The translations under genes and the position numbers were made by a program. 64,000 bases of DNA from NCBI GenBank assembly GCA_965217585.1, contig OZ244561.1, positions 1,216,001 through 1,280,000 of the forward strand, in the 5' to 3' direction. The stretch's first letter is position 1; each line of letters starts with the position of its first letter. Source of the DNA: Candidatus Latescibacterota bacterium. Its GTDB lineage: Bacteria; Latescibacterota; UBA2968; UBA8231. Positions 9,099-32,756 of the stretch are shown here, piece after piece. The notes below the pieces were generated by a model. The model was given only the letters and a program-made list of their open reading frames with translations, was not told where the DNA came from and did no database searches.

Positions 9099-10730
9099 AT
9101 GCCCATCCTCTCCCCCACCCACCTTACCGCCATCGCCCGCCGTCGCCGCCTCATAGTCAATTTCGACGTGACCTTTGCGATTAATGTGCAGCATCGTCGC
9201 AGTCCGGATCGGCCCGATCTCGTAGAGCATTTGTTCGAGTTTGCCGACGCGCCCGGGTCGCAGATCGACAGCATTTGGTGGAACTGGGGCGAGGGGAATC
9301 AAGCGCCCTATCCGAGTGAACACTTGCCGCTGTACGACCATCCGCTCTATCAAAAGTGGGCGGACGAAGGGACGGATATCGTCGGCCAAGTCCTCGCGGC
9401 CACCCATCGCCGCGGCCTAGAGTGCTTCTTTTCGCATCGCATGAACGGCTCGGACAACGACCTCGGCCCGTTTGCGCGCATCCCCGCGAAAGTTGCGCAT
9501 CCCGACTGGCTCTTTCGCACGCCTTGGTGTACGCACGCGGACAACGGCTATTGGAATTTCGCCTTGCCCCAAGTACACGACTACGTCCTGCGCAACTTGC
9601 GCGAAGTGATTGAGCGCTGGCCTTTTGATGGGATGGAATTGGACTTTGCCCGCGGGGTCGTCTTTCCCGCCGGCCAAGGCTGGCCCAACCGCGAGCGGCT
9701 GACTGAATTCATCGCCCGGCTGCGGGAATTATCGTTGGCCGTGAGCGAGCGGCGCGGACGCCCTTTTCTCCTCGCCGCCCGCATCCCCGAGACGCTCGTT
9801 GGCTGCCGCTTCGACGGGATCGATGTCGAGCGCTGGGTCGGCGAGCAATTGATCGACCTGCTGGCTCTCGGCGTGCGCTCTTTTGAGGTGGATTTGGCGG
9901 ATTTCCGGCACGTGGTCGCGGGCACCGAGGTCAAGCTCTATCCGTCCCTCGACGATCACCACGCTACGGACGGCTACCAAAATCCCGGCATCGAGGTGCT
10001 GCGCGGAGTGGTGGCCAATTGGTGGCGTCAAGGCGCAGACGGCATCCACACCTTCAACTTCAACTACGCAACCGACACCCCGTACGCCGGTCAAGATTGG
10101 GCCAGCCATCGCCAAGCCTACCAAGAGTTAGGCGCGGTCGAAACTCTCGTCGCCAAGGCCAAGCGCTTCGTCGTCCAGCGTCGCGGGGGCGGACACGGCC
10201 CCACCGTGATACCCAACCCCGAGGATTGGGCAACCCCGAGGCACAACTACGCCAACACCAACATGCTGGCCCAACTGCCCGCGGCCGTGCCCAACGACGG
10301 ACACACCGATCTCCTGCTGCAAATACACGTGGGGCTCGACCTAGCCGCCGAGCGCATCGCCGCAGCCGAGTTGCGCCTCCTGCTATCCGATCCGGGCGCA
10401 GCGGACTTGCCCGCGGACCAACGCCTGCCGCCGGTGCAAGTAGCGACCATCGGTCATCCCGACGGAGAACTCGTCAATATCCCGGCGGCGCAAGGGGTGG
10501 AACGAACCGTGCAGATACGGCTGAACAATGCGTTGCTGGAACAGCCGACCGTGGACGATGGCTGGTTGGTCTGGCCGGTCGAGGGGATGCTCTTGGCGGC
10601 CGGCGAGAATCTGGTCGGCATCAGCGCCCAAGGACGGGCACTCGACGCGTCGCAGTTCGTCGTTGAAAAGCTGGAAATAGCTGTGGGGTGTGAGGTCGAG
10701 ATTTTCGCCTTGACCACCAATCGAGATTGA
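9099..10730 (+). CDS. GHL10-like TIM-barrel glycoside-hydrolase-like protein
   Basis: SHRMN, HPDW, WNFALPQV, DGMELDF, GADGIHTFN. Confidence 0.65.
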   Translation: MPILSPTHLTAIARRRRLIVNFDVTFAINVQHRRSPDRPDLVEHLFEFADAPGSQIDSIWWNWGEGNQAPYPSEHLPLYDHPLYQKWADEGTDIVGQVLAATHRRGLECFFSHRMNGSDNDLGPFARIPAKVAHPDWLFRTPWCTHADNGYWNFALPQVHDYVLRNLREVIERWPFDGMELDFARGVVFPAGQGWPNRERLTEFIARLRELSLAVSERRGRPFLLAARIPETLVGCRFDGIDVERWVGEQLIDLLALGVRSFEVDLADFRHVVAGTEVKLYPSLDDHHATDGYQNPGIEVLRGVVANWWRQGADGIHTFNFNYATDTPYAGQDWASHRQAYQELGAVETLVAKAKRFVVQRRGGGHGPTVIPNPEDWATPRHNYANTNMLAQLPAAVPNDGHTDLLLQIHVGLDLAAERIAAAELRLLLSDPGAADLPADQRLPPVQVATIGHPDGELVNIPAAQGVERTVQIRLNNALLEQPTVDDGWLVWPVEGMLLAAGENLVGISAQGRALDASQFVVEKLEIAVGCEVEIFALTTNRD

Positions 10731-10898
10731 CGACCGTTTGGGCTTTGCTCTGGCGTTGGTTTTCGCGCGATTGTCCGGGTTCGCGGAAAGAAAGCGGAGA
10801 TAGACTAATGATAACACGTTTACTAATTCGTCTTTTCTCTCTGGTAGCGGTCGTTATAACGATCCCCAACCCATCACTACCACCGCCCCCGATTGTCC

Positions 10899-10950
10899 GC
10901 CTAGCAAACTGCGCTAGGCTCTAACCTACGCGCGGCAAACTGCGCCGCGC
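10899..10950. repeat. Twin hairpins with identical AAACTGC loops
   Basis: gcctagc-aaactgc-gctaggc (10899-10919) and gcgcggc-aaactgc-gccgcgc (10930-10950). Confidence 0.7.
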
Positions 10951-11223
10951 TCCCTATCACGCCGTCGCTTCATTCCCTCCCCCAATGAAGTGTTCCGGTA
11001 CTGCACGCATTGAGGCCGGAGAGAGAGCCGAACAGTGGGCACCCGCAGGAGAGGCCGGAGCATAGCCCCCCATTGCCCCAAGCGACACGCGGATAGCAAC
11101 TGCCAAAGACGGGGAAATCGGAAGCTGCTGGCGCAGATTTTTTGTTGGTGGAGCTGCGAAAGTTTCCCCGGTCCTGTCGATCCTATACTTTTGAGCAGAA
11201 ACCTAACACAAAAAGGATTTGCG

Positions 11224-11970
11224 ATGCACGAACGAATAGCGAAGATATTGTCGACTGCACATGAAAATCCGGGACGGATTCGACCCACGGAGCTTTACAA
11301 CGAAGGCTGGATGCTACGGTTGTTGCTCGACTGGGTTGAAGCCCATCCTGAATCTGACCACGAACTATCGTTACGTTCTGGTGCCCGCTGGTATTCGGAG
11401 GCGCTCCTGCCATCTCAATTCAAAGGCTACCGTGGACTCGGTGAGGGCTGGACGAGCGCCGATGGCGTCGCCGGGCACTTCGACATCGGCTGTCGTCACA
11501 AGGGAGCCCTTACGCTTGCAGCGGATGCATCCCAGTTCGTCGTCATTGAGGCCAAGATGTTTAGCCCCCTATCCTCGGGCACGAAAAACGCGCCTGATTA
11601 CAACCAAGCTGCAAGGAACGTCGCCTGCATTGCCCAAGTGTTGAAAGAAGCACAGCGCACACCGGACTCGATGGAGTCTGCTTTGGCGTTCTATGTCGTT
11701 GCACCCCAAGAACAGATCGAAGATGACATATTCCGCGACGAGGATGGGAAGGATATCGTCGAACGCGGGGCCATCCGCAGGTGCGTCGAGCAGCGCGTCG
11801 AGTCCTACGAGGCGCGGGGTGACTGCTCTAAGCGGACTTGGTTTGAGGAGTGGTTCACGCCAACCCTCAAAGTCATCAAACTTGGGCTGCTGTCTTGGGA
11901 AGAGTTGATCCTTCCCGCAGGGAGCAGATACAAAGAATTCTACGAGCGATGCCTGAAATTCAATAAATAA
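11224..11970 (+). CDS. Hypothetical protein, putative PD-(D/E)XK nuclease fold
   Basis: TSADG...VIEAKM...NQAAR pattern; ATG after aaagga. Confidence 0.6.
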   Translation: MHERIAKILSTAHENPGRIRPTELYNEGWMLRLLLDWVEAHPESDHELSLRSGARWYSEALLPSQFKGYRGLGEGWTSADGVAGHFDIGCRHKGALTLAADASQFVVIEAKMFSPLSSGTKNAPDYNQAARNVACIAQVLKEAQRTPDSMESALAFYVVAPQEQIEDDIFRDEDGKDIVERGAIRRCVEQRVESYEARGDCSKRTWFEEWFTPTLKVIKLGLLSWEELILPAGSRYKEFYERCLKFNK

Positions 11971-12043
11971 AAACTACGAGATGGTGTCGATTGAGCGGGA
12001 AATCTTTACCGAGGAAGCCATTGGTCCTTGGTAGCACCCGGGC

Positions 12044-12071
12044 ATTAACGAAAATTTACTTTATCGGTAGT
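12044..12071 (+). other. Putative tyrosine-recombinase site A (11-6-11)
   Basis: attaacgaaaa-tttact-ttatcggtagt. Confidence 0.7.
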
Positions 12072-12145
12072 ATTATTGCGGGCGGCCTGACGGGGATATT
12101 CAGATCGCTTCTCAACGCCCTTCTTCAAGGAGGAAAGAGACGACT

Positions 12146-13285
12146 TTGATGTGGGGAATACTCGTTGCGGCTTTGATCTTTGGGAGCCTAGGGGCCAACG
12201 CCAATGAGGGCCGTACGCCGCTGCACCTTGCGGCGGTGATGAATGATTTTGCGACGGCCAAGGTCTTGCTTAGGGCGGGAGCCGATGTCAACGCCAAAAC
12301 TGATGAGGGCGCTACGCCGCTGCACCTTGCGGCGATGAGGAATGCTTCTGAGACGGCTGAGGTCTTGCTTAGGGCGGGAGCCGATGCCAACGTCAACGCC
12401 AATGAGGGCAACACGCCGCTACACCTTGCGGCGATGTGGGATGCTTCTGAGACGGCCAAGGTCTTGCTTAAGGCGGGAGCCGATGCCAACGTCAAAGACA
12501 GTGAGGGCACTACGCCGCTGCACGTTGCGGCGATGGAGAATGCTGTTGCGACGGCTGAGGTCTTGCTTAAGACGGGAGCCGATGTCAACGCCAAAAACAA
12601 TGAAGGCTATACGCCGCTGCACGTTGCGGCGATGTGGGATGCTTCTGCGATGGCTGAGGTCTTGCTCAAAGAGGGAGCCGATGTCAATGCCAACGCCAAT
12701 AGGGACACTACGCCGCTGCACGTTGCGGCGGTGAAGAATGCTTCTGAGACCGCCGAGGTTTTGCTTAAGGCGGGAGCCGATGTCAACGCCAAAACCAATG
12801 AAGGCTATACGCCGCTGCACGTTGTGGCGGAGAAGAATGCTTTTGCGACGGCTGAGGTCTTGCTCAAGGCGGGAGCCGATGTCAACGCCAACGCCAATGA
12901 GGGCGTTACGCCGCTGTACATTGCGGCGATGGAGAATGCTGTTGCGACAGCCAAGGTTTTGCTTAAGGCGGGAGCCGATGTCAACGCCACCAACGCCAAT
13001 GAGGGCGCTACGCCGCTGCACATTACGACGGTGGAGAATGCTGTTGCGACAGCCAAGGTTTTGCTTAAGGCGGGAGCCGATGTCAACGCCAAAACCAATG
13101 AAGGCTATACGCCGCTGCACGTTGTGGCGGTGAAGAATGCTGTTGCGATGGCTGAGGTCTTGCTCAAGGCGGGAGCCGATGCCAACGCCAAAGACAATGA
13201 GGGCAACACGCCGCTGCACCTTGCGGCGATGGTGAATGCTTCTGAGACCGCCGAGGTCTTGGGTCGTTACGGTGCCCGACGCTGA
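12146..13285 (+). CDS. Secreted ankyrin-repeat protein (11 repeats)
   Basis: Signal peptide followed by 11 G-x-TPL(H/Y)...LL-x-x-GAD repeats; ~99-bp DNA tandem repeats. Confidence 0.95.
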   Translation: MMWGILVAALIFGSLGANANEGRTPLHLAAVMNDFATAKVLLRAGADVNAKTDEGATPLHLAAMRNASETAEVLLRAGADANVNANEGNTPLHLAAMWDASETAKVLLKAGADANVKDSEGTTPLHVAAMENAVATAEVLLKTGADVNAKNNEGYTPLHVAAMWDASAMAEVLLKEGADVNANANRDTTPLHVAAVKNASETAEVLLKAGADVNAKTNEGYTPLHVVAEKNAFATAEVLLKAGADVNANANEGVTPLYIAAMENAVATAKVLLKAGADVNATNANEGATPLHITTVENAVATAKVLLKAGADVNAKTNEGYTPLHVVAVKNAVAMAEVLLKAGADANAKDNEGNTPLHLAAMVNASETAEVLGRYGARR

Positions 13286-13365
13286 ATCCTCAACTTACTT
13301 AACGGCTCTCAATTCGACTTCCGCGACCTCTCCTTGTGTGGATAGTGCTGTAATTATCAAGTCGA

Positions 13366-13393
13366 ATCCTAATCAAGCGGGCTTATCGGTAGT
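13366..13393 (+). other. Putative tyrosine-recombinase site B
   Basis: atcctaatcaa-gcgggc-ttatcggtagt; left arm degenerate. Confidence 0.6.
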
Positions 13394-13650
13394 AAAAAAT
13401 CTGCGCCTACCCACAAACCAGCTCCGGGGCCTTGCTTCCGCCTCGCGCTTCGTCGATCTCGACCAGGCCGCACCCAAAGGAATGGGCCAACCGCCTCAGC
13501 CATTAGAGGCGATTACAGGGCCTTGACAGGGTTTAAACGGGACCGGGAAATTCTCGGCAGCACATCACCACCAACAAATCAAGGCGAAGCTGGTGCCGAT
13601 GGATCGTCGGCATCGACTTCGCTGGCAATTTGCCTTGAAAGGATTGCAGT

Positions 13651-13881
13651 ATGCAGAAATCTAACCCCGGAGCGGCTGCCTGCCTTGCTATCTTTGCCCA
13701 GACGCTCAGCGAAACAGAGCGTCAAAAATTACGGGAAAATTGCGAGTTACTTTTCCGTCTATTAGGCGAGGGCGCTGCCGAGGGCGCTACCGAGGGAGAC
13801 GACAACGAAGCGGCCGAGACCCTAATCCTTGCCGGACGCTACCTTGAGCTATTGGAGCAGAAAAAATCTAAGTATTGGTAA
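13651..13881 (+). CDS. Small hypothetical protein (76 aa)
   Basis: RBS aaagga; the only credible gene between sites B and C. Confidence 0.55.
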   Translation: MQKSNPGAAACLAIFAQTLSETERQKLRENCELLFRLLGEGAAEGATEGDDNEAAETLILAGRYLELLEQKKSKYW

Positions 13882-13909
13882 GAGGTTCAGGGCCGTTAGG
13901 GGCGCTCAG

Positions 13910-13937
13910 ATTTGGACTAATTCACTTTATCGGGAGT
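13910..13937 (+). other. Putative tyrosine-recombinase site C
   Basis: atttggactaa-ttcact-ttatcgggagt. Confidence 0.7.
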
Positions 13938-13976
13938 AAGACTGTCTTTTAATTTTGGCCATTGGAGGGCCTGAAT

Positions 13977-14417
13977 ATGACGATGCTTTTCCCCCTTTTG
14001 CTCCTACTGACCGCCTGCGGCGATGCGCCGACAGCCCCGGCGTGGGAACCTGAATCAAGACCATTCAACGCAGTAACTTCGATTGATGCGGGCGATTTCT
14101 TCGTGGCACGATTCCCCATCAGCAACGACGAATTTGAACACGGTCGTAATTTCGTGCTCAGTGGCAACTTCGAAGTACTCGCTGGCGGTAGTCGGGACAT
14201 TAACGCCTATGTAGTGGACGAAATTGGCTACAAGAACTTTTACAACGGGAATAACTTCAGGTCTTTTTTCTCAGCAACAAGGGTAACGACAGACCGCTTT
14301 TCTATTCCCCTCTTTCGGGCGGATACCTACTACGTCCTCTTTAGCAACCGCTTTTCTATTTTCACAGACAAAAGAGTCGATCTTAATATCGAACTCCACT
14401 ACGAAACAAAGGGGTAA
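13977..14417 (+). CDS. Hypothetical lipoprotein (beta-sandwich-like)
   Basis: Lipobox LLLLTAC; RBS ggagg. Confidence 0.75.
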   Translation: MTMLFPLLLLLTACGDAPTAPAWEPESRPFNAVTSIDAGDFFVARFPISNDEFEHGRNFVLSGNFEVLAGGSRDINAYVVDEIGYKNFYNGNNFRSFFSATRVTTDRFSIPLFRADTYYVLFSNRFSIFTDKRVDLNIELHYETKG

Positions 14418-14492
14418 CGCCGTCTTAGCTTGCGGCGCGGGCCTGCTCGGTAGTCAAGGCTCGTCGATCGCGGCCGACTAGCCGCCGGCGTA

Positions 14493-14520
14493 ACTTCCGA
14501 GAACCGGCATTATCGGGAGT
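14493..14520 (+). other. Putative tyrosine-recombinase site D
   Basis: acttccgagaa-ccggca-ttatcgggagt; arms are 9/11 inverted repeats. Confidence 0.75.
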
Positions 14521-14534
14521 AGGTGGGGCCGGTG

Positions 14535-15296
14535 CTATCGGGTCTCTGGCCATGATGGACCCATCCATTGACCGACCGCTTTGGCATATAGAGGCCAGCA
14601 ATGTTTGCGCTGCGGATAGAAGTACCCGCGGGCGTTGGGGTGGTAGGTCTGAAGCCAGAGGGCGCACCTACCCGGCTCAAGTTCGATGAAGCCGGTCTCG
14701 TAGTGAGCGTCCTTTTTGTAGTTGTCGGCACTTCTTACACTGCACTTGACATGCTCTTGGACAGTGAAACTCTCGCAGATCGCAACCTTCGCCCAGTTGC
14801 CTTGTGTCACCACAATATCCGGCTTCAGGATGCGTAGTTCTTTAGGAATGAAGCGGCGGCATTCATCAAACAACGTCCTGTCAGCCTGCCGTTTATTTTT
14901 TTTGTTCTGGGAGCACTTCGCACTGTTGACGTGGGCAAAGTAGGGCGGTGTATCGGCTATCTTGAGGCCACACTTGAATTGGCAGAGCAACTTGAGTGCC
15001 ATTTCGTGGGTGCGGTACCAATGTTTGTTCTTCTCCAGTGTCTCTACATCCGTGGCGAGGTTTTGGCAGCGGACGGCTTCGATTGTGCGTTGCTCTGGAT
15101 CTGAACAGCCTTCGCCAGAATCCAGCGAGAGGAAGAGCAAGCGCGGAAGTTGTCGTTTTTCATAATGCGGGCCTACGTAACTCGCCTTGGCTTCCGTGAA
15201 GCGCGGGGAATTGGCCTTGTTGCACTTGGGAAGCGAACAACAATGAAAGGGCGAGATTCCGTGTTCTTCGTAGAAAACGGTGAGTTTTTCGAGCAT
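14535..15296 (-). CDS. Uracil-DNA glycosylase-like superfamily protein
   Basis: YVGPHY, HVNSAKCS, ELRILKPDIVVTQG, TYHP; RBS gaggagg. Confidence 0.7.
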   Translation of the reverse strand: MLEKLTVFYEEHGISPFHCCSLPKCNKANSPRFTEAKASYVGPHYEKRQLPRLLFLSLDSGEGCSDPEQRTIEAVRCQNLATDVETLEKNKHWYRTHEMALKLLCQFKCGLKIADTPPYFAHVNSAKCSQNKKNKRQADRTLFDECRRFIPKELRILKPDIVVTQGNWAKVAICESFTVQEHVKCSVRSADNYKKDAHYETGFIELEPGRCALWLQTYHPNARGYFYPQRKHCWPLYAKAVGQWMGPSWPETR

Positions 15297-15858
15297 GCTA
15301 CCTCCTCTTGTGGTTTGGGTGAGCAGACAATCAACGTCATCCCCAAAATTCTCGCCAGACGTGCCTTTTCAGCGCCGGGGCTTCTACTCCTTCAACGGGC
15401 TGGTGATTTCTTGGCCTTTGGGCTGTTGCTGTTGGTTGCAGTTCAGCAATGGGCGGGTTGCTGGCGGGGTCTGCTTCGCTCTCTCTCGCTGCTTCGCTCT
15501 CTCGGCCTACTGGTAAAGGTCAATCGGGTGTCAAAGCAATGGGGGGCAAGCGGCCATTGCGTGAACGTAGCAACCGGGAGACGGCGGTAAAGGGGACGTG
15601 ATGGGAGGGGGCATGTCGTCGGGCTTGAATAGGCCAGCAAGGGGGGGCTGTTTGGGTCTTGGGGGCTGGCCTATGGATAATCAGGGGATGGGGTGGGATG
15701 CTGCCGGGAAAGTCCGCGTGGTTCAGCACGTAGCGCTAGCGCGTCCTCGGATAATCCACTAGGCGAGGCCCTCAATCTCCGGTGGATCCTTTGAGGCGGG
15801 CGACGGCCCCCAGCCCGGCGGCTTGGCCTCGGCTGTATCGGCCCGGCATATCCGGCGA

Positions 15859-16077
15859 TTACCAGCGACCGGCGTTTTGCAGCTCGGCCAAGCCAGCCAG
15901 CTTGTGGATGACCTCACAGGCTGATACGATGTTTTTGGAGTCGCAGCCGTTGAAAGTCAGCTTAGGCTTGGAGACTGGTCCCTCGTAGGAGAACCACCCG
16001 ACGATGATGTTGGACAAATCTTGTCCCTTGCGCTGCGCGCCGAGACCTAAGTATCCTTTGGAAGCTGCCAACCGCAT
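15859..16077 (-). CDS. Possible small hypothetical protein
   Basis: 72-aa ORF near aaaaggag; no family recognised. Confidence 0.25.
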   Translation of the reverse strand: MRLAASKGYLGLGAQRKGQDLSNIIVGWFSYEGPVSKPKLTFNGCDSKNIVSACEVIHKLAGLAELQNAGRW

Positions 16078-16404
16078 CTCCTTTTTCCAGTAGGTGCCAG
16101 CCTGCCAACCGGCTGAATCTGTTGCAAAAATAACGACTTAGGCTTGGCCAATAGGCCCTTGCCAACCCCCTGTTGGTAAGCTGCCAACCCCCAGGATGGC
16201 AATCAATGCCCAAATGTGGAGCCAAAAGAACGCGCAATCGCGGTCTTTGCCAAACCGATGTTCCCCGCGAAGGCAACCGCTATAAAAAACACAGCGAGGA
16301 AGCTCAGCAAGCGCGATTAAAGAAGGCTTAGGCCGAAGTCGATCCAACCCCCGAGATCGTCACCGACATAGACGCTTCCAGCATCCAGGAACTATCTGAC
16401 CGGC

Positions 16405-16533
16405 GCGAGCCACCGCCCCCTGCCGCAGGTCGGTCAAATCGAAGATCCGCACCTGCTGCCTCGGCGACCTGAAAGCGCGAGTCGTGGCTGGTTCGTAAAA
16501 GCACCCCGGCGCTTGTGCCAACGAACGGGCCGA
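16405..16533 (-). pseudogene. Degenerate copy of the recombinase C-terminus
   Basis: SARSLAQA...E...R...QGAVAR aligns without gaps to TAQDLAQA...E...R...QGAIAR of 16547-17473. Confidence 0.5.
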
Positions 16534-16546
16534 GTTACCCCCGGCC

Positions 16547-17473
16547 TTATTCCCGGTAGCGGTGCCGAGCAATCGCCCCTTGCCCGGCCGCTTGGCCCCT
16601 CACGTAGTGGGCGGGCATCCTAGCCGTTTCCCAGCGCCCCGCTTGCATCAATTCCGTTGTGCTGGCCCCCGCTTGTGCCAAATCTTGAGCGGTGCCGATC
16701 CGCAGGGAGTGCCCGCTGGCCCCTTCAATGCCAGCCGCGACGGCCGCGGCCTTGATTGCGAGCCTTGCCCCGTTGTCGGTAATGCGCTCTTGCCCGAGGC
16801 GGTCCCCCCGGCGCATACGACGGAACAGCGCCCCCGCGCTGAAACTGGCCACCTCGAGGTACGCGTGAAGAGCGGCAACGGTAGGCTGGCCGAGGAACAG
16901 CACGGCCCCGGCCCCTTCCTGGTCTGTTTTGGAGCTTGGCACCGTCAACCGGCCCGTGCCGTCCCCTTCAAAAGCGAGGTGCTGCACGTCGATTGCCACG
17001 GTTTCGCTTATCCGCAGCATCCCGTCCGACATCACCCGGAACAGCGCCGCATCACGCAGCCCGGCTAAGGTGCCCAGCTTGGCAGCGGTTCGGGCGATTA
17101 TCTCCACATCGACATAGCGCAGCGCGGCGACCTGGCCTCGGCCCCGGCCTTTGCCTTCTCGGCGGATCCCCGCCAGGGTGCGCGTGGTCAGCGGCCCGAC
17201 GACCGAGGGGCGACCTTCCAGCTTTTCCACGAAGCGCACGGCTTGAACGACGATCGCAAGGCTGGCCGGAGAAAGCCCGGCCCCGTGCCCTTGGGCCAAG
17301 TAATCAGCCAGGGTGGCGTCTGTGGGCGGCTGGCCGCCCAAGGCATCGGACAGGCGAGAAAGCGCGGCGCTGTATGCTTTGGCGGTGTTGGGCGCAACGC
17401 TGGCCGCTATCAGCTTTTGAGTATCCACGGCGACGGCTGGCGCGGTGTGGGTCGTGGTGGCGAGTGAGTGCAT
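16547..17473 (-). CDS. Cre-like tyrosine recombinase
   Basis: Catalytic set LRISE, SKTDQ, GHSLR, GRW, AHYV; RDAAL; N-terminal NTAKAY; no IntI-specific insertion seen. Confidence 0.93.
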   Translation of the reverse strand: MHSLATTTHTAPAVAVDTQKLIAASVAPNTAKAYSAALSRLSDALGGQPPTDATLADYLAQGHGAGLSPASLAIVVQAVRFVEKLEGRPSVVGPLTTRTLAGIRREGKGRGRGQVAALRYVDVEIIARTAAKLGTLAGLRDAALFRVMSDGMLRISETVAIDVQHLAFEGDGTGRLTVPSSKTDQEGAGAVLFLGQPTVAALHAYLEVASFSAGALFRRMRRGDRLGQERITDNGARLAIKAAAVAAGIEGASGHSLRIGTAQDLAQAGASTTELMQAGRWETARMPAHYVRGQAAGQGAIARHRYRE

Positions 17474-17501
17474 AGCGTCCCCTTGGGCAAAAGGCCAACT
17501 A

Positions 17502-17529
17502 ACTTCGACTAATGGTAACTATCGGTGAT
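17502..17529 (+). other. Putative tyrosine-recombinase site E, recombinase-proximal
   Basis: acttcgactaa-tggtaa-ctatcggtgat, 29 bp upstream of the recombinase start. Confidence 0.65.
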
Positions 17530-17545
17530 ATTAAAGGCTTTTTCG

Positions 17546-17579
17546 ATACCTTTTTGGTGCTTTCCGACCAAAAAGGTAT
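17546..17579. other. Perfect 13-8-13 palindrome with loxP architecture
   Basis: ATACCTTTTTGGT-gctttccg-ACCAAAAAGGTAT. Confidence 0.7.
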
Positions 17580-17754
17580 GATTGACCTCGGCGAGCCTAG
17601 TGCGCCTCGAATCCCGCTGCCGCAGCCAGCTATCGCAAGCGCCAAGTCGCTGCCTAATTTTCAAACGAATACACTACCGAATTTTCAGGCAGGCGGAACT
17701 CGTCTTAAACTTCCGCAACTGCAATCGGAACCTTGAGCAATTAGAATTGGGCTT

Positions 17755-25168: not shown

Positions 25169-25375
25169 GAGGATACAGGCGAGGTAGATTGATGGGGTGG
25201 GTAGTATAGCTTCTTGTCGCGCTCGAATCAATCGCCTATTAGCTCCGACCTCGCCCACCACTCAAGAGAAACTCCCGCGCCTCTCAGCGCATGGCCGGGT
25301 GCGATGTGCGCCTCGCCATTCCTTCGTCGTCATCCTTGCACCTACATTCCGCATCGTTAATTTAGCCTGAAAGTG

Positions 25376-25511
25376 GAATACCGCACCCGCCTGATCGCCG
25401 ATGTAGTGCAAGATCAACGTGCGCGGGGCGGCAGCTAATCTGCCCAACGCGGTGAACGCGCCTGAGCCACCGGAAACGGTGGGATATCCACACAGAAGAG
25501 CTTGCGTATGA
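25376..25511 (+). pseudogene. hsdS: 3' remnant of type I restriction-modification specificity subunit
   Basis: EYRTRLIADVV / frameshift / KINVRGAAANLP; stop overlaps next ATG (ATGA). Confidence 0.65.
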
Positions 25512-27157
25512 CCGTCTCCACAAATGAACTCCAAACTTGGATGAACGCCAAGGAAGACGAGCATCTAGAGTTCAAAGAAGCAAAGGCTAATTTTCACTTC
25601 GAGACCTTGGTGAAGTACTGCGTCGCCCTCGCCAATGAAGGCGGCGGAAGGATGATCCTCGGCGTAACGGATAAACTGCCGCGCACGGTGGTGGGTAGCC
25701 GGGCTTTTCCCGATCTCGAACGGACGAAGGCCGGTCTGGTTGAGCGACTGCGGTTGCGCATTGAGGTCGAGGAAATTCAGCATCCAAACGGTCGGATTCT
25801 GGTCTTTCAAATCCCTACTCGTCCGATTGGTGTGCCTATGCAGTATGAAGGCGCGTATTGGATGCGTGGTGGAGAGGCCCTTGTTCCCATGACGCCGGAT
25901 CAACTCCAGCGCATTTTTGCCGAAGCTAGCCCCGATTTCTCGTCTGAGATTTGTACGCCTGCCCGATTAGACGATCTCGATCCGACTGCTGTGGATATTC
26001 TGCGTCAACTTTGGCAGCGGAAGTCACCAGACCAAGACATTTCTACCCGCCCCGTAGAGCAACTCCTAACAGATGCGGAATTGCTCGTCGATGGCGAGGT
26101 GACGTACGCGGTGCTGATCCTGCTGGGCACGCGCAAAGCCCTAGGCAAATATGTCGCCCAAGCAGAGCTTATTTTTGAATACCGTTCCAATGAAGTGCCG
26201 GGACCGGCGGCGGAACGACGTGAATTCAGACAGGGCTTTCTTCCTGTACTCGACGAGATCTGGCGACTTGTCAACCAACGCAACGACCTGCAACACTTTC
26301 AGCAGGGATTCTTTATTTGGGACGTGCCCACGTTCAACGAGCGCGTGGTTCGCGAGGCCGTCTTGAACGCGGTCAGTCACCGCGATTATCGCCACGGAGG
26401 CTCCATCTTCGTGCGCCAGTATCCTCGACGCATCGAGATCGTCAGCCCCGGCGGATTCCCAGCCGGCATCACTCCTGAGAACGTTCTTCGGCAACAAAAT
26501 CCGCGCAATCGCCGTATCGCCGAAGTCCTCGGCAAATGCGGCTTGGTCGAACGGGCCGGGCAGGGGTTTGACCGCATCTTCCGCGAGTGCATTCAGCAGA
26601 GTAAGCCATTGCCCGACTTTTCCCATACGGATGCCCACTCCGTATGGCTCACGCTGCACGGCGATATTCAAGACTCAGAGTTCTTGCGTTTTCTGGAAGA
26701 GATTGGTCGGGAACAAGTGGCCGCATTTGCCCTTGACGATTTGCTGGTGGTCGATCTCGTCCACCGCGAGCAGCCTATTTCCGACTACTTTAAACCAAGA
26801 ATTGGGCATCTGCTGGAACGGGGGATCATCGAGCGCGTCGGACGCGGGCGGGGCGTGCGGCTGCTGTTGTCCCGACAGTTATACCGACACATCGGTCAGG
26901 CAGGGGTCTATACGCGCAAGCGTGGGTTGGACCGCGAGACGAACAAGGAGTTGCTGCTGAAGCACATTCAAGATAACCGGAAAGAAGGGAGCCAGTTGCG
27001 GGAACTGAGGCAGGTGTTGCCAGCCCTCTCGTACGTCCAAGTTCAGAAATTACTTCAAGAGTTGAGGATTAAGGGACAGATCCACAAAGTAGGGAACACT
27101 AGCGCCGCTCGCTGGTATCCAGGGGGACCTCCATCTGGAATTATGCCAAAACAATGA
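25508..27157 (+). CDS. AlbA_2 (Schlafen-like) + HATPase_c_4 + wHTH ATP-binding protein
   Basis: EDEHLEFKEA, VALANEGGG, REAVLNAVSHRDY, SPGGFP, PRNRRIAE, VERAGQG. Confidence 0.9.
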   Translation: MTVSTNELQTWMNAKEDEHLEFKEAKANFHFETLVKYCVALANEGGGRMILGVTDKLPRTVVGSRAFPDLERTKAGLVERLRLRIEVEEIQHPNGRILVFQIPTRPIGVPMQYEGAYWMRGGEALVPMTPDQLQRIFAEASPDFSSEICTPARLDDLDPTAVDILRQLWQRKSPDQDISTRPVEQLLTDAELLVDGEVTYAVLILLGTRKALGKYVAQAELIFEYRSNEVPGPAAERREFRQGFLPVLDEIWRLVNQRNDLQHFQQGFFIWDVPTFNERVVREAVLNAVSHRDYRHGGSIFVRQYPRRIEIVSPGGFPAGITPENVLRQQNPRNRRIAEVLGKCGLVERAGQGFDRIFRECIQQSKPLPDFSHTDAHSVWLTLHGDIQDSEFLRFLEEIGREQVAAFALDDLLVVDLVHREQPISDYFKPRIGHLLERGIIERVGRGRGVRLLLSRQLYRHIGQAGVYTRKRGLDRETNKELLLKHIQDNRKEGSQLRELRQVLPALSYVQVQKLLQELRIKGQIHKVGNTSAARWYPGGPPSGIMPKQ

Positions 27158-27312
27158 ATAATCGGCCAAAAAGCATAATTTTGGCATAAGTTAGACGCAA
27201 TTGATTTTATAAGTATTTGTTTCTTATATCTTTATGTTTAGACATTTATGCTAACATTTATTGCTTATACTACAATAAGTCACAATTTTTTAAGATATGT
27301 GAGGATATGAAC

Positions 27313-27558
27313 ATGAAGAACATTACCGTATCTGTAGATGAAGAAACCCATCGGCTCGCCCGCATTCGGGCGGCGGGGTTGGGCACATCCGTGTCGGCAC
27401 TGGTCCGGGGCTACCTCAAAACCCTCGTCCGCAAGCGAGCCGTCCAAACGGCGGCGTCTCGTCGGTTGGGTTTTATGGCCGGCCAGATCAAAGTCCCCGA
27501 CGACTTCGACAGCATGGGCGGACCGGAGATAGAAGAAATGTTCGGGAGAGACGCATGA
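27313..27558 (+). CDS. Orphan, apparently chimeric antitoxin (RHH N-terminus plus VapB/Phd-type tail)
   Basis: MKNITVSVDEETHRLARIRAA...SVSALVR followed by RRLGFMAGQIKVPDDFD; no toxin downstream. Confidence 0.65.
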   Translation: MKNITVSVDEETHRLARIRAAGLGTSVSALVRGYLKTLVRKRAVQTAASRRLGFMAGQIKVPDDFDSMGGPEIEEMFGRDA

Positions 27559-27583
27559 CTTTATTACGGAAGAGGTGTAGAGT

Positions 27584-28138
27584 ATGAGGTTCATAGTATT
27601 AATCGTTACTGTAATCGGGATCGCAACCCCGGCCAACGGTGAAGATGAAGCGATGGCTATTCTCAAGGCACTGGGGCGTGCGGATTCCCTGCTAGCGCAA
27701 GGCCAGTCTGATCAGGCGTTAGATGAATACGTAGGGGTGAGGAGGGCGTTTGCCAGATATATGGAGCCGCGGATAGAAGCGAGGATCTACAATAGAATAG
27801 CCGTAATATCTCTTTACGGTGGTTATCGTAAGGCGGCTGAATCCCTGCAAAAATCGCTCGCTGAAGACCCTACGCAGGAACCGTTATTCACGATCTTGGA
27901 GAGGGTGATGCTGGAGAATATCGAACTCTACGACAGGATTGCCATCATCCTCGACGAAGTTGGGCTTTCTGCCGAAGCGCACGAGTATCGCGAGCAGGTT
28001 AAAGATCGTCGCTATTTTGCCGAGGTACTAACGGCCGCACTCGAACCTCTGAGAAAAAAATCGCTTAAGGAGACTATGGAGATGCTTCCAAAGACCCGGG
28101 AGTACTTGGAGAAACGATTAAAATCAGAACAACGATAA
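27584..28138 (+). CDS. Secreted helical/TPR-like hypothetical protein
   Basis: Signal peptide; RBS gaggtg. Confidence 0.65.
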   Translation: MRFIVLIVTVIGIATPANGEDEAMAILKALGRADSLLAQGQSDQALDEYVGVRRAFARYMEPRIEARIYNRIAVISLYGGYRKAAESLQKSLAEDPTQEPLFTILERVMLENIELYDRIAIILDEVGLSAEAHEYREQVKDRRYFAEVLTAALEPLRKKSLKETMEMLPKTREYLEKRLKSEQR

Positions 28139-28241
28139 CGCCTATTACACTGAATTCGGTTACGCTGTGTGGCGGCCCCGACTCGAGCCGGTCTAACCTT
28201 AAGCGTTCGTCCAAGGAGAAAATCTCGGTCATGGTTGTCAT

Positions 28242-28269
28242 ACTCCCGATAGGTTGTAAGTTTTGCAAG
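28242..28269 (-). other. Putative recombinase site F (same arm as island 1 sites)
   Basis: Minus strand: cttgcaaaact-tacaac-ctatcgggagt(a). Confidence 0.5.
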
Positions 28270-28344
28270 CCGGAAAAATCCCATATCGGCCAGCGCCAGC
28301 GGTTGTAGTCCGCCTTGTGTCGCCCTTAACCAAGAAGGTGTATC

Positions 28345-29166
28345 ATGCTGAAAATGTTCGTCTTATTCGTTGCGATCCTTGCCACTTACAAGCAAGATCT
28401 GGGTGCCTTAGAAGGGGACTGTTCAACGCACTCAATAGCGGGGACATGGTGGGGGACAATAGGAGAAGCCAATGTGCATCAAACATGGGCCAGACTGTCT
28501 ATTGCACATCGGGCGTTCAAGCCAGAGATTGTCGAGAACTGGCGGAATATGTTTCCAACGCCCGCCGACCAACCCGGGTCCGGGCCCTACGGTTGTGTTT
28601 ATGATTTTACTTTCACCGACTTCTATAAAGACAGAGCACCGCTTAAAGAATACGAAGCCAAAGGCGTTATTGTTGTTACAAAGAGCGAAAGGCGGGACGC
28701 GCTGGTCTTCCTAACATTAGAAAGCAAAGCCACGCGCTACTATTTCTACGACAGCGCCATCTTTAAAAAACGGTTGCACGACTACGGCACAACAGATGAA
28801 ACCGAAGAAACGAGAGCGGCAATAGACAGTCTGCGGACTTCAAGGGGATTGTCTAGCTACCATGACGCCAGCACGATCTACTTCGAGGAAATGTTTATTA
28901 AAGAAGGGGGTTACGGAACACCAATAGGATTGCAGTCCCATTTTGAGTCAAACTATACCGACTACAGCTACGAAGCTTTTAAGATCCACGATACCAACAC
29001 CGCCGTGCTGTTGGACAAGGATGAGGTTATCTTTCTCGAAAACGATGGGGATTGGATGGAAGGGAATTCCGCCCCTTGGTTTGCCGAGCATATATGGTAT
29101 CGCGAAACAGACAAAAACAAAGGTTCTTTTATACGCAGGTTGCGCGGGGATAATCCGCCATATTGA
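28345..29166 (+). CDS. Secreted hypothetical protein
   Basis: Hydrophobic N-terminus, RBS aaggtg, 273-aa lower-GC ORF. Confidence 0.65.
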   Translation: MLKMFVLFVAILATYKQDLGALEGDCSTHSIAGTWWGTIGEANVHQTWARLSIAHRAFKPEIVENWRNMFPTPADQPGSGPYGCVYDFTFTDFYKDRAPLKEYEAKGVIVVTKSERRDALVFLTLESKATRYYFYDSAIFKKRLHDYGTTDETEETRAAIDSLRTSRGLSSYHDASTIYFEEMFIKEGGYGTPIGLQSHFESNYTDYSYEAFKIHDTNTAVLLDKDEVIFLENDGDWMEGNSAPWFAEHIWYRETDKNKGSFIRRLRGDNPPY

Positions 29167-29234
29167 AGACTAATTCGTGGGTTGAAGAGATTTTATTACG
29201 GAAGGTTAGCTGAATACGAAAAGACGCGAATCGA

Positions 29235-29411
29235 CGACAATCTGAAGGCGCGTAGCTGGGCCAATCAACAGGTCGAAAGTCGCTTGGGCTGTGCCATCCT
29301 CAATCGAATGATCCATGGAGGCAAACCTGAGTCGTGTAGAATAAAAAAAGCAACTGACCAAAAAACAACATTCCACAAGGCTATCCCCGATAAGATTCAT
29401 GCAACAACGCC
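29235..29411 (+). mobile_element. IS5-family (IS903-group) 3' remnant
   Basis: LKARSWANQQVESRLGCAILNRM transposase tail; terminal ttcatgcaacaacgcc resembles the IS903 TIR. Confidence 0.75.
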
Positions 29412-29660
29412 GACAGGAACTGTAATAGTCGATTACCATCAGGAGATATATCTATATGGGTGAGAAAGAGTTCACAGGTTCTCTTACAGATTATATTATT
29501 GATTACCGAAAAGGGCTGACTAGTCAATTAATAAGTATAATCGATGAGAGAATTGATGAATTATGGCCTCTAATAAAGAATAGTCATATCGACGATGAGA
29601 GAATTTTTGAGATCATAGAGCACATTGTAGGACTTGGTTTTGTTGTGCTTCAACAATATA

Positions 29661-30797: not shown

Positions 30798-31133
30798 TAT
30801 GACAGTCGTGTACGGGAATTTACAAAAAGAGAAAAAAGATGTGCTGCCGAAGGGGCCGAAACACGAAAGTGGTAATACTTTCGTGAAAATAGTTGATGCC
30901 TCAGCCAATTACTGGAAGCATAATAGTGAATGGCCATTAGATAAATCTTGTAATCGTAAAGAAAAGATCGAGGCTATTTTTAAGATGGTTTCTATTAATG
31001 ATCATCCTATTTCTGTCAATGATGATTATCCATTGGGTAATATATTATTTGATTTGTCGCATACTGAGAAAGAACAGTTTAATGCCGTTTTCAAAAAAAT
31101 ACTAGAATGGCGGAATGAACTAAATCGATAATC

Positions 31134-31320
31134 TAACTACTTGAAAACGACAGATTTCAGTCCTACTATTTTCATAACTGACTGCCCAACAACGAGTTAT
31201 ACAGATTAAATTTTGGAAATGGAAAATCCCGATTTTCAATCAGTATTCTTCTAGTTTCCCTATGAGAAGCGTTACTAGAAAATCTCGATTTGGGGTAAAC
31301 CCGTCGTTTTCAAGTAATTA
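31134..31320. mobile_element. MITE or IS remnant with 24-bp TIRs
   Basis: taactacttgaaaacgacagattt and aaacccgtcgttttcaagtaatta are 21/24 inverted; non-coding interior. Confidence 0.6.
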
Positions 31321-31335
31321 CTCCGTAAAATGGGA

Positions 31336-32739: not shown

Positions 32740-32756
32740 AAAATGGGACTGATTCT

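What the first reader, a model, noticed from the sequence alone, without database searches (positions are those of the whole stretch)
12044..17529. Candidate integron-like gene-cassette array run by a Cre-like recombinase, using 11-6-11 sites instead of attC
Seen: five intergenic 28-bp sites in the same orientation. A 12044 attaacgaaaa-tttact-ttatcggtagt; B 13366 atcctaatcaa-gcgggc-ttatcggtagt; C 13910 atttggactaa-ttcact-ttatcgggagt; D 14493 acttccgagaa-ccggca-ttatcgggagt; E 17502 acttcgactaa-tggtaa-ctatcggtgat. Every right arm is followed by A. One unrelated gene sits in each interval: A-B ankyrin, B-C small ORF, C-D lipoprotein. A UDG-like gene follows D and a nuclease-like gene precedes A. 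Site E is 29 bp upstream of an intact Cre-like recombinase. Spacers alternate between AT-rich (A and C, one mismatch apart) and GC-rich (B and D). Known: 11-6-11 is the core-site geometry of XerCD/dif and pdif modules, but these arms are not the canonical XerD arm (TTATGTTAAAT), and the enzyme is not IntI. Inference: the recombinase captures or stacks single-gene cassettes at these sites, with E playing an attI-like role.
Basis: partly seen in the sequence, partly recalled or inferred. Interest (0 to 1): 0.92.

Follow-up and report, generated by a model that had tools for sequence, protein, structure and literature searches.

The report
dif-like sites between island gene modules
A sponge-symbiont genome carries a small strain-specific island in which single genes are separated by copies of the short DNA site that this group of bacteria uses for chromosome resolution, next to a Cre-like recombinase, which looks like a modular gene-shuffling system related to ones known from Acinetobacter plasmids.

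Summary
The five 28-bp sites are real and far from chance. I found three more: F and G, inverted, in a second island, and H at the left edge of the first.

They are dif-type 11-6-11 core sites, not a new site type. Their right arm equals the arm of the perfect palindrome that lies beside a XerD-like gene in relatives. In this genome the orthologous site, with diverged arms, lies 78 bp from the GC-skew maximum. The same arm appears in palindromes near homologues of the neighbouring Cre-like recombinase in other phyla.

The sites lie inside a ~7-kb insertion that most relatives lack. A second such array sits beside the homologue in a sister genome. In four comparisons, homology between genomes or contigs breaks at a site.

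The integron analogy holds only loosely:
- The array lies beyond the 3' end of the recombinase gene, not on the upstream side where E is.
- E is the weakest site.
- All spacers differ.
- No excision product was seen.

The best fit is a dif-module or IMEX-like accretion island served by a Cre-like or host Xer enzyme. That makes it a new variant of a known kind, of moderate to high interest.

The parts
10696..17747 (.). Island 1: a strain-specific insertion of about 7 kb between the 3' end of a GHL10-like gene and the 3' end of a PhyH gene
   Evidence: G011, G044, G010, G041, G021 and G012 join window 10695 to 18591 with 85-88 bp between, which include a remnant of the PhyH 3' end. G007 joins 10695 to 17755 with 7 bp between. 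GC is 53-58% against about 61-64% in the flanks.
10804..10831 (-). Site H: ACGAATTAGTA-aacgtg-TTATCATTAGT on the minus strand. A dif-like site whose good arm is one mismatch from this genome's own dif arm.
   Evidence: 23 such hits in the whole genome. A contig of run X1 starts to match at 10818, inside H's spacer.
11224..11970 (+). 248-aa orphan gene. The PD-(D/E)xK-like motif is by eye only.
   Evidence: No Pfam, NCBIfam, PADLOC or PHROG hit. A 93% copy lies at G000 1736611-1737524 with no site beside it.
12044..12071 (+). Site A: ATTAACGAAAA-tttact-TTATCGGTAGT
   Evidence: Homology of the ankyrin module to G002 and G014 starts at 12060/12061. The X1 contig stops matching at 12071.
12146..13285 (+). 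Ankyrin-repeat protein, 11 repeats. The N-terminal signal-like segment is my own reading.
   Evidence: Pfam Ank 5e-85. 73-79% DNA homologues sit at other loci in G002, G014, G042 and G004.
13366..13393 (+). Site B: ATCCTAATCAA-gcgggc-TTATCGGTAGT
13651..13881 (+). 76-aa ORF; coding status not shown
   Evidence: No family hit.
13910..13937 (+). Site C: ATTTGGACTAA-ttcact-TTATCGGGAGT
13962..14417 (+). Small lipoprotein-like gene with a weak GOLD-domain hit. The likely ATG start at 13978 is my own reading.
   Evidence: Pfam EMP24_GP25L 7.4e-6. Partial DNA homologues in G001 and G046.
14493..14520 (+). Site D: ACTTCCGAGAA-ccggca-TTATCGGGAGT. A nearly complete site, with 19 of 20 specified arm positions. 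By my count it is 25 of 28 identical to the dif of G022.
14535..15296 (-). 253-aa gene with a sub-threshold UDG-superfamily hit
   Evidence: Pfam UDG 22.1 bits against a cut-off of 24.3. NCBIfam hits lie far below their cut-offs.
15713..15927 (-). Remnant of a second recombinase gene (C-terminal piece, one stop codon) and of its downstream DNA
   Evidence: tblastn match at 15793-15927. 15766-15890 is 88% identical, and 15713-15746 94% identical, to the G001 recombinase locus.
16547..17473 (-). Intact Cre-like tyrosine recombinase (P0001, 308 aa)
   Evidence: Pfam Phage_integrase 6.9e-14. The best 17 PDB matches are all Cre or Tre (E 5e-10). In the printed alignment the stretches LRISE, SSKT, GHSLR, GRW and HY face those of Cre. 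W281 and Y290 are invariant in 9 homologues.
17502..17529 (+). Site E: ACTTCGACTAA-tggtaa-CTATCGGTGAT. The weakest site. It lies 28 nt from the recombinase start codon, on the opposite strand.
28242..28269 (-). Site F: CTTGCAAAACT-tacaac-CTATCGGGAGT, in island 2
29383..29410 (-). Site G: GCGTTGTTGCA-tgaatc-TTATCGGGGAT, in island 2
   Evidence: Homology of the neighbouring module to G002 starts at 29411, the base after the site's outer edge.
25170..33664 (.). Island 2: a second strain-specific region holding a Schlafen/AlbA_2 ATPase, an RHH-like small gene, orphan genes, an IS630-like element and a Mutator-family transposase
   Evidence: G011, G021, G012, G007, G044 and G010 have the two flanks 59-77 bp apart. 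Pfam results.

Best explanation
The sites are copies of the dif-type 11-6-11 core site of a tyrosine recombinase. They mark the joints between gene modules that were acquired separately and stacked by site-specific recombination inside a strain-specific island. This is a 'dif-module island' in a sponge-associated Latescibacterota genome.

The consensus full site is ACTnCCGATAA-N6-TTATCGGnAGT. Most array members keep one good arm plus the A next to the spacer on the other side. D keeps both arms.

The most likely enzyme is the adjacent Cre-like recombinase, whose relatives in other phyla lie next to perfect palindromes with the same arm. The host's XerD-like enzyme, which sits beside the terminus dif, could act as well.

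Shown: the sites exist, they cluster, they match dif and the clade's palindromes, the island is an insertion, and homology breaks fall at sites.

Inferred: that recombination at these sites built the array, and which enzyme did it. Because every spacer differs, I infer one of two things. Either the array is now largely frozen, or exchange uses one strand pair and replication, as in IMEX and integron reactions.
For: 1. Clustering:
- 7 of the genome's 13 YTATCGGKRRTA matches lie in this window.
- Arms with up to 1 mismatch run at 1.22 per 40 kb genome-wide. Five lie within 2.5 kb here.
- No other of 132 genomes of the class shows such a cluster of exact arms among the matches listed; 44 were not listed.

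2. Identity with dif:
- Perfect 12-6-12 palindromes TACT[A/C]CCGATAA-C[A/G]GGCA-TTATCGG[T/G]AGTA occur in 6 genus genomes.
- In G022 the palindrome lies between mutL and a 333-aa gene whose best PDB match is XerD.
- The G000 orthologue's site is at 6416930-6416957, and the cumulative GC-skew maximum is at 6416852.

3. Link to the Cre-like clade:
- 15 of 79 homologue loci have a palindromic TAA-N6-TTA site within 2.5 kb of the gene. That is 17 sites in 440 kb near the gene against 3 in 1001 kb further away.
- Most of these sites have the arm [A/G]CTTCCGATAA or ATTTCCGATAA.
- In four genomes of another family a full site and an inverted half-site about 270 bp away share the same spacer. The spacer differs between genomes: gtggat twice, gttgga, gttgat.

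4. A second array: three arms within 2.1 kb beside the homologue in G001, separating one- and two-gene modules. Arrays occur at 2 of 5 full-length homologue loci in the genus.

5. Boundaries at sites:
- Ankyrin-module homology starts at 12060/12061 in G002 and G014, and at 12069-12071 in G004 and G042.
- Module Y homology starts at 29411, the base after site G.
- The X1 contig matches only 10818-12071, from H's spacer to the end of A's right arm.
- The 26-bp identity to G001 starts in the spacer of G001's third site.

6. Stacking: a remnant of a second, G001-type recombinase gene lies in the same island and orientation.

7. Enzyme choice: the arms of both arrays are the CGG type, whereas the own dif of G000 and G001 has TTATCAATAGT.
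Against: - All spacers differ. Only A and C are within one mismatch of each other, so ordinary Cre-type exchange between members is not expected.
- No excision or circle joint at the sites was seen in contigs of four public runs. Contigs drop rare forms, and 26 joints were not shown.
- 64 of 79 homologue loci show no such palindrome nearby. That includes nearly all of the closest (about 60% identical) homologues, this genome's own 63% paralogue, and the homologues in G022 and G004.
- The island's outer ends carry no recognisable site, and the hot spot is also used by unrelated insertions.
- A 93% copy of the leftmost gene elsewhere in the genome has no site beside it. Relatives of that gene in 80 metagenome loci show arms only at chance level.
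- In Acidobacteriota and in the other Latescibacterota family the recombinase-plus-palindrome locus is syntenic between genomes. There it looks like a resident module and not a mobile one.
Confidence: 0.55

Rival explanations
1. The host Xer machinery made the array. The candidates are the XerD-like enzyme next to the terminus dif, or the two other Xer-like genes. On this view the modules are IMEX/pdif-type elements that exploit Xer, and the Cre-like gene is only a passenger or an unrelated integrase.
For: - The arms equal the genus dif arm, and D is 25 of 28 identical, by my count, to the dif of G022.
- H is one mismatch from this genome's own dif arm.
- Single sites persist beside the ankyrin module in G002 and G014, which have no homologue of the Cre-like gene at E 1e-10.
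Against: - Both arrays in the genus lie within 3 kb of a Cre-like gene.
- Array arms are the CGG type, whereas the host dif in exactly these two genomes is TTATCAATAGT.
- Homologues in a family that lacks the XerD-like orthologue still have the palindrome beside them.
- The island is about 2.1 Mb from dif round the circular chromosome.
Confidence: 0.2
2. This is a true integron-like platform. E acts as an attI-like entry site next to the recombinase, and cassettes are captured one by one and expressed from a common promoter.
For: - Sites A-E share one orientation.
- Single genes lie in three intervals.
- Each right arm travels with the module downstream of it (ankyrin case). Together with the degenerate left arm and spacer at the module's far end, this would rebuild one site on circularisation, the same logic as attC.
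Against: - The array lies on the 3' side of the recombinase gene, and E faces the other way with no cassette beyond it.
- E is the weakest site.
- The gene after D is on the opposite strand. G001's array has mixed orientation and minus-strand genes.
- No sigma-70-like promoter falls at the sites.
- The enzyme gives no integron-integrase match. Its NF040815 hit is 40 bits against a cut-off of 220.
Confidence: 0.08
3. The 12-mer is the operator of a transcription factor or a promoter element that came in with the imported genes, and has nothing to do with recombination.
For: A, B and C each lie upstream of a plus-strand gene, 40-257 bp from its start.
Against: - D and E have no downstream gene on their strand.
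- In G042 the same 12-mer is inverted at the same place upstream of the ankyrin gene.
- The full palindrome lies 78 bp from the GC-skew maximum beside a Xer gene, and beside Cre-like genes in other phyla.
- There is no sigma-70-like match at the sites.
- No regulator gene was found in island 1.
Confidence: 0.04

Closest known systems
pdif / chromosomal dif modules and 'dif module islands' of Acinetobacter (PMC12907356, abstract and outline read; PMC7399989 and PMC11705084 seen in the search listing only)
   Same: 28-bp Xer-type sites away from the terminus flank small gene modules. [quoted passage not shown] The same modules turn up in other replicons or loci.
   Different: - This is a different phylum and habitat, and the cargo is orphan and ankyrin genes, not resistance genes.
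- The arms are of one kind (palindromic, single-recombinase type), not XerC and XerD arms.
- Most sites keep only one good arm.
- Orientation is mostly direct here. The alternation of pdif sites is recalled, not checked.
- A dedicated Cre-like recombinase gene sits in the island.
IMEX, integrative mobile elements exploiting Xer, such as CTX/TLC/VGJ of Vibrio and the gonococcal island (review PMC5357621, passages read)
   Same: - Elements stack in tandem, separated by dif-like hybrid sites with one degenerate arm.
- Exchange can proceed without spacer identity, by one strand pair plus replication. That mechanism is recalled from the field.
   Different: IMEX integrate at dif itself and lack their own recombinase. 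This island is about 2.1 Mb from dif and carries a recombinase gene plus the remnant of a second one.
Single-recombinase Xer modules, XerS/difSL and XerH/difH (PMC5357621, passages read) and the Legionellales dif system (PMC9765430, listing only)
   Same: The recombinase gene is genetically linked to its own palindrome-like core site. Both the XerD-like gene at the terminus here and many Cre-like homologues in other phyla show this layout.
   Different: Those systems have one site per chromosome, for dimer resolution. They have no arrays between cargo genes.
Cre/loxP of phage P1
   Same: It gives the best PDB matches, E 5e-10 over residues 55-303. The Arg, Lys, His, Arg, Trp and Tyr stretches face those of Cre; the residue numbering of Cre is recalled. 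The clade keeps the Cre-type Trp (W281), which is invariant in 9 of 9 sequences. The full site is a palindrome.
   Different: The site is 11-6-11 with dif-like arms, not 13-8-13 loxP. The overall match to Cre is weak (40 bits over residues 55-303).
Integrons (IntI, attI, attC)
   Same: An array of promoter-poor single-gene units separated by recombination sites, next to a tyrosine recombinase.
   Different: There are no folded attC sites. There is no IntI signature. The array is on the wrong side of the gene, and orientations of sites and genes are mixed.
Rci/sfx shufflon, and the recombinase-associated immunity-gene arrays (rAID-1) of Bacteroidales. Both are recalled, with no paper read here.
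   Same: sfx sites also have one conserved arm and one variable arm. rAID-1 clusters also combine a Xer-like recombinase with arrays of small accessory genes and conserved intergenic repeats.
   Different: Shufflons invert coding segments. No relation to rAID-1 was tested.

Membership tests
Xer/dif-type core site | 28 bp: two 11-bp arms in inverted repeat around a 6-bp spacer, with inner ATAA/TTAT | tested here: met
   D has 19 of 20 specified arm positions. A has 17, C 15, E 14 and B 13 of 20. 9 of 10 window and G001 sites keep A next to the spacer on the weak side (my counts). Full palindromes with the same arm occur in relatives.
Xer/dif-type core site | The same sequence serves as dif at the replication terminus | tested here: met
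   The G000 site at 6416930-6416957 lies 78 bp from the cumulative GC-skew maximum at 6416852 and next to a XerD-like gene. Function in dimer resolution was not tested.
dif/pdif modules | Modules bounded by the sites recur in other contexts, with the break at the site | tested here: met
   The ankyrin module, module Y at site G, the X1 contig from H to A and G001's third site. Sites B and C could not be tested, because no homologues that reach the flanks were found.
dif/pdif modules | Mobilisation by XerC/XerD acting on distinct C and D arms | tested here: not met
   Only one kind of arm is present. Which enzyme acts was not tested.
IMEX | Integrated at the chromosomal dif and lacking its own recombinase | tested here: not met
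   The island is at 1.227-1.234 Mb and dif at 6.417 Mb of a 7.32-Mb genome. The island encodes a recombinase.
Integron | IntI-type integrase | tested here: not met
   No integron-integrase family reaches its cut-off in NCBIfam. The best hit is 40 bits against 220. The best PDB matches are Cre, and IntI4 does not appear among P0001's hits.
Integron | attI next to intI, with cassettes extending from it, and attC sites that fold | tested here: not met
   The array lies 3' of the gene, and nothing lies beyond E except about 220 bp of remnant DNA. The sites are 28-bp duplex-type sites, and in A-C the arms are not complementary.
Cre-like tyrosine recombinase | Catalytic Arg-Lys-His-Arg-Trp-Tyr set and a two-domain fold | tested here: met
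   In the printed alignment to Cre the stretches LRISE, SSKT, GHSLR, GRW and HY face their counterparts. R154, R258, W281 and Y290 are invariant in 9 homologues. The fold was not modelled.
Cre-like tyrosine recombinase | Binds and recombines the neighbouring palindromic site | not testable with these tools
   There is only genetic linkage and spacer covariation.
Shufflon (Rci/sfx) | Inverted sites inside the 3' parts of a coding region | tested here: not met
   The sites are intergenic and mostly direct.

The most novel reading that the evidence does not exclude
A Cre-like recombinase clade shared among sponge-symbiont phyla runs a cassette system on dif-mimicking half-sites. Each module would carry one good arm and rebuild a complete site when circular. 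That would let single accessory genes, including eukaryote-like ankyrin proteins, be captured, stacked and passed between loci and lineages without an integron integrase or attC. The diverged dif of the two array-bearing genomes would then be an escape from cross-reaction with this system.
Probability: 0.2. Interest if true: 0.85.

Novelty: new variant of a known kind. Interest (0 to 1): 0.62.

Why it matters
Arrays of gene modules flanked by Xer sites have so far been described mainly for resistance plasmids and chromosomes of Acinetobacter. Finding the same architecture in an uncultured sponge symbiont suggests that module shuffling at dif-type sites is a general route of gene flow. Here it comes with a dedicated Cre-like enzyme whose relatives occur in many symbiont phyla.

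The finding also gives three testable things:
- A compact new recombinase and site pair, with natural half-site partners.
- A candidate explanation for how ankyrin and other accessory genes move among sponge symbionts.
- A predicted dif/Xer module for Latescibacterota.

Tried and rejected
1. Genome-wide promoter or operator. Rejected: only 13 matches in 7.3 Mb, 7 of them in this window. There is no sigma-70-like match at the sites.

2. tRNA-linked island or known RNA. No tRNA and no Rfam hit in the window.

3. A putative inverted half-site at 17674-17685. Rejected: it is part of a 26-bp stretch identical to DNA upstream of a DUF1156 methylase gene in G001.

4. The 66-bp repeat at 16403-16468, seen four times in G001's 25.6-kb island. 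It is a piece of a repeated gene family, not a site.

5. Hairpins AAAGCCCCGT..ACGGGGCTTT upstream of the closest homologues. They lie between tandem collagen-like lipoprotein genes in L102, and I read them as terminators.

6. Whether the palindromes beside homologues in other phyla sit at a GC-skew switch. Skew over 10-kb flanks gave no clear answer.

7. Other palindromes with the CGATAA-N6-TTATCG core in the second family. The ones examined have non-palindromic outer arms, and one conserved pair lies inside a coding region.

8. Conserved element backbone. Only the recombinase is shared among eight homologue loci, and upstream regions are not conserved.

9. Arms with 2 mismatches occur at chance level by my estimate and were not used.

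10. Relatives of the 248-aa gene in metagenome contigs (80 loci). Arms occur only at chance level: 18 hits, about 18 expected by my estimate.

11. Homologues of the B-D modules in the genus. Only partial coding matches were found, with no site beside them.

12. Reads. All four runs are Logan contigs. No contig joins across A-C or any other pair of sites. Joints 13278>12053 (X8) and 12096>13335 (X4) lie in or near the repetitive ankyrin gene and are not interpretable. Depth differences between modules were not used. 26 joints and 3300 pieces were not shown.

13. Cargo function. There are no PADLOC or PHROG hits for the orphan genes.

14. Literature. A search for 'sponge symbiont' + 'tyrosine recombinase' + 'ankyrin' gave 0 papers. 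Searches gave nothing on this system. Supplements are closed and were not seen.

Full report
THE OBSERVATION

The looser YTATCGGKRRTA occurs seven times against 0.01 expected: the five sites plus two on the minus strand at 28241 and 29382.

The window is bases 1,216,001-1,280,000 of a single 7.32-Mb contig. In that whole genome the loose pattern occurs only 13 times, 7 of them in the window. The motif is therefore a local cluster and not a general promoter or operator word. Conservation stops at the 12-mer. The flanks of the sites are unrelated, so the copies are not left over from a segmental duplication.

GENES

The gene content is largely as described:
- An ankyrin protein between A and B.
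- A 76-aa ORF without any family between B and C.
- A small lipoprotein-like gene with a weak GOLD-domain hit between C and D.
- After D, a minus-strand gene with a sub-threshold UDG hit.
- Before A, an orphan 248-aa gene.

The recombinase (16547-17473, minus strand) is intact. Its 17 best PDB matches are all Cre or the Cre-derived Tre (E 5e-10). The printed alignment places LRISE, SSKT, GHSLR, GRW and HY opposite the corresponding Cre stretches. No integron-integrase model comes near its cut-off.

WHAT THE SITES ARE

A pattern search over the 31 genomes of the genus found perfect palindromes TACT[A/C]CCGATAA-C[A/G]GGCA-TTATCGG[T/G]AGTA in six of them. In G022 this palindrome lies between mutL and a 333-aa tyrosine recombinase gene whose best PDB match is XerD (2e-17). 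G007 and G046 have the same locus.

The orthologue in this genome (91% identical) is at 6,415,858-6,416,829. Upstream of it lies TACTAACGATAA-caggca-TTATCAATAGTA. The cumulative GC skew of the chromosome peaks at 6,416,852, which is 78 bp from that site, and has its minimum at 2,663,736. This is the layout of a terminus dif site linked to its recombinase gene, as described for XerS/difSL and XerH/difH (PMC5357621, passages read).

The arms in the window are therefore the genus's dif arm. Site D (ACTTCCGAGAA-ccggca-TTATCGGGAGT) is 25 of 28 identical, by my count, to the dif of G022.

LINK TO THE CRE-LIKE CLADE

Homologues of the recombinase occur in 14 of 41 related genomes sampled, this genome included. 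A scan of one genome per species found 249 relatives. The 79 loci kept come from MAGs labelled Latescibacterota, Gemmatimonadota, Acidobacteriota, Gammaproteobacteria, Dadabacteria, Poribacteria, Rhodothermales and others. Many of the isolate names look like those of sponge metagenome bins.

In 15 of the 79 loci a palindromic TAA-N6-TTA site, with at most 2 mismatches between the 11-bp arms, lies within 2.5 kb of the gene. That is 17 sites in 440 kb near the gene against 3 in 1,001 kb further away. Six of these loci have ACTTCCGATAA or GCTTCCGATAA (Acidobacteriota MAGs) and two have ATTTCCGATAA (another Latescibacterota family). A third locus of that family was missed by the filter because of one base. 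Other lineages have variant arms.

In four genomes of that other family, a full site about 190 bp upstream of the gene is paired with an inverted half-site about 270 bp further on. The half-site has the same conserved right arm and a degenerate left arm. Within each genome the two sites share the same spacer, and the spacer differs between genomes: gtggat in two, gttgga and gttgat in the others. That covariation is what recombination between the two sites would maintain. It also shows that half-sites of the kind seen in the window can be partners of a full site. That family has no orthologue of the XerD-like gene.

The link is not universal. 64 of the 79 loci show no such site. These include nearly all of the closest (about 60% identical) homologues, this genome's own 63% paralogue, and the homologues in G022 and G004.

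THE ISLAND

Six relatives join window position 10695 to 18591 with only 85-88 bp between, and that stretch includes a remnant of the PhyH gene's 3' end. G007 keeps PhyH and joins 10695 to 17755 with 7 bp between. The insertion in this genome is therefore about 10696-17747, in the last codons of a GHL10-like gene.

The same spot holds unrelated insertions in G001 (25.6 kb), G006 and G020, with different junctions. No dif-like sequence is visible at the empty site. How the island reached this hot spot is not explained.

Inside the island, a remnant of a second recombinase gene (15793-15927, one stop codon) is 88% identical in DNA to the 3' end of the G001 homologue (window 15766-15890). A further 34 bp (window 15713-15746) are 94% identical to DNA downstream of that gene. 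So at least two recombinase-bearing elements were stacked here in the same orientation.

At the left edge I found an eighth site, H (10804-10831, minus strand). Its good arm, TTATCATTAGT, is one mismatch from this genome's own dif arm. There are 23 hits that good or better in the whole genome.

A SECOND ARRAY

In G001 the homologue is followed by this series:
- a DUF2188 gene
- a site (+)
- two minus-strand ORFs
- a site (+)
- a 252-aa ORF
- a site (-)
- a DUF1156 methylase gene

Arms with at most one mismatch occur at 1.22 per 40 kb in this genome. There are five within 2.5 kb here, counting both arms of D, and three within 2.1 kb in G001. The other three full-length homologue loci of the genus show 2, 1 and 0 in 20-41 kb. 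Among 132 genomes of the class, no other shows a cluster of exact arms in the listed matches; 44 matches were not listed.

Both array-bearing genomes have the diverged dif arm TTATCAATAGT, while their arrays carry the CGG-type arm that is typical of the Cre-like clade's palindromes.

DO MODULE BOUNDARIES FALL AT THE SITES?

There are four cases.

1. DNA homologues of the ankyrin module (73-79% identical) lie at other loci in G002, G014, G042 and G004.
   - Homology starts at 12060/12061, the first base of A's right arm, in G002 and G014. G002 has TTTATCGGGAGTA there, and G014 has a copy with one base missing.
   - Homology starts at 12069-12071 in G004 and G042.
   - In G042 the same 12-mer stands inverted at that place.

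2. G002's insertion at the equivalent of window 23430 contains, in order, an RHH-like gene (= window 27302-27550, 93%), the site, the ankyrin gene, and a module Y (= window 29411-29668 plus 30796-31141). In this genome those parts are spread over islands 1 and 2. Y homology starts at 29411, the base after the outer edge of site G.

3. A 1,376-base contig of public run X1 matches the window only from 10818 to 12071. That runs from inside H's spacer to the last base of A's right arm, with 32 and 75 unlike bases at the contig's ends.

4. The 26-bp identity between window 17653-17678 and G001 begins in the spacer of G001's third site.

Sites B and C could not be tested, because no homologues reaching their flanks were found.

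MECHANISM

- Shown: the sites are dif-type, they are clustered, they are linked to the clade, and they lie at joints.
- Inferred: the array arose by site-specific insertion or accretion of modules.

The consistent asymmetry (a good right arm, a degenerate left arm and a variable spacer) fits a scheme in which each module carries a right arm at one end and its own left arm plus spacer at the other. A circular module would then rebuild one site, and exchange would occur at the spacer/right-arm border. That is the logic of integron cassettes and of IMEX integration, where only one strand pair is exchanged and replication finishes the job. That mechanism is recalled from the Xer literature and was not tested here.

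Against present-day activity:
- All spacers differ.
- No excision or circle joint at a site was seen, although the available data are contigs that drop rare forms.
- In other phyla the recombinase-plus-palindrome locus is syntenic between genomes and looks resident, not mobile.

COMPARISON WITH KNOWN SYSTEMS

The closest described architecture is the pdif/dif module and the 'dif module island' of Acinetobacter (PMC12907356, abstract read). Next come IMEX arrays at dif.

It is not an integron. The enzyme is not IntI, the sites are not attC, the array is on the wrong side of the gene, and orientations are mixed. It is not an IMEX in the strict sense either, because it is about 2.1 Mb from dif and has its own recombinase.

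I found no paper describing this system in the four searches made.

VERDICT

This is a new variant of a known kind: a dif-module island with a dedicated Cre-like recombinase in a sponge-associated Latescibacterota genome. Interest is 0.62.

Noticed in passing
G000 chromosome 6415858-6416957 (outside the window); L066 in G022: A perfect or near-perfect 12-6-12 palindrome lies between mutL and a 333-aa XerD-like gene, 78 bp from the cumulative GC-skew maximum. It looks like a dif site linked to its recombinase gene in Latescibacterota. Two further Xer-like genes (26-27% identical) are also present in the genome.
   Followed up: partly
L126, L132, L137 (about 9525-9830 in each) and G037 C72 4723-4992: In a second Latescibacterota family, a full palindromic site and an inverted half-site flank an AT-rich segment of about 270 bp upstream of the Cre-like gene. 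The spacers are identical within each genome and differ between genomes. This may be an invertible switch. All four assemblies show the same orientation.
   Followed up: partly
window 10695/17755 and window about 23430: There are two insertion hot spots at convergent gene ends. The first is empty, or holds 0.9, 2.2, 7 or 25.6 kb, in different genus members, and PhyH has been deleted in many. The second holds the RHH-ankyrin-Y insertion in G002 and G014.
   Followed up: partly
window 25170-33664: Island 2 holds a Schlafen/AlbA_2 plus HATPase_c_4 protein with weak PADLOC hits to Argonaute-associated proteins. It also holds an IS630-like element with three 100% identical copies elsewhere in the genome, which interrupts module Y, and a Mutator-family transposase.
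   Followed up: partly
G000 512753-512780 (L073 about 1499-1532): A 34-bp perfect palindrome, GCATACTTCCGATAA-GATA-TTATCGGAAGTATGC. It carries the clade's consensus arm but has a centre 2 bp shorter than 11-6-11. It lies at the 3' end of an orphan gene. Its function is unknown.
   Followed up: partly
L115 8630-9472 and window 17755-18555: A PhyH-family dioxygenase gene lies directly upstream of the Cre-like gene in both G000 and G001. The two PhyH genes show no DNA similarity, so the adjacency may be chance.
   Followed up: no
window 16403-16468; G001 island; G002: A 66-bp piece of a repeated gene family, present four times in G001's 25.6-kb island and twice in G002's locus. The family was not identified.
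   Followed up: no
L102 1-9200: Four tandem paralogous collagen-like (GPAGPAG...) lipoprotein genes, separated by near-identical GC-rich hairpins, lie upstream of a homologue in an unclassified MAG.
   Followed up: partly
L003 (the G001 homologue): The G001 recombinase has Gln where the other eight homologues have the His of GHSLR, so its activity may be altered.
   Followed up: no
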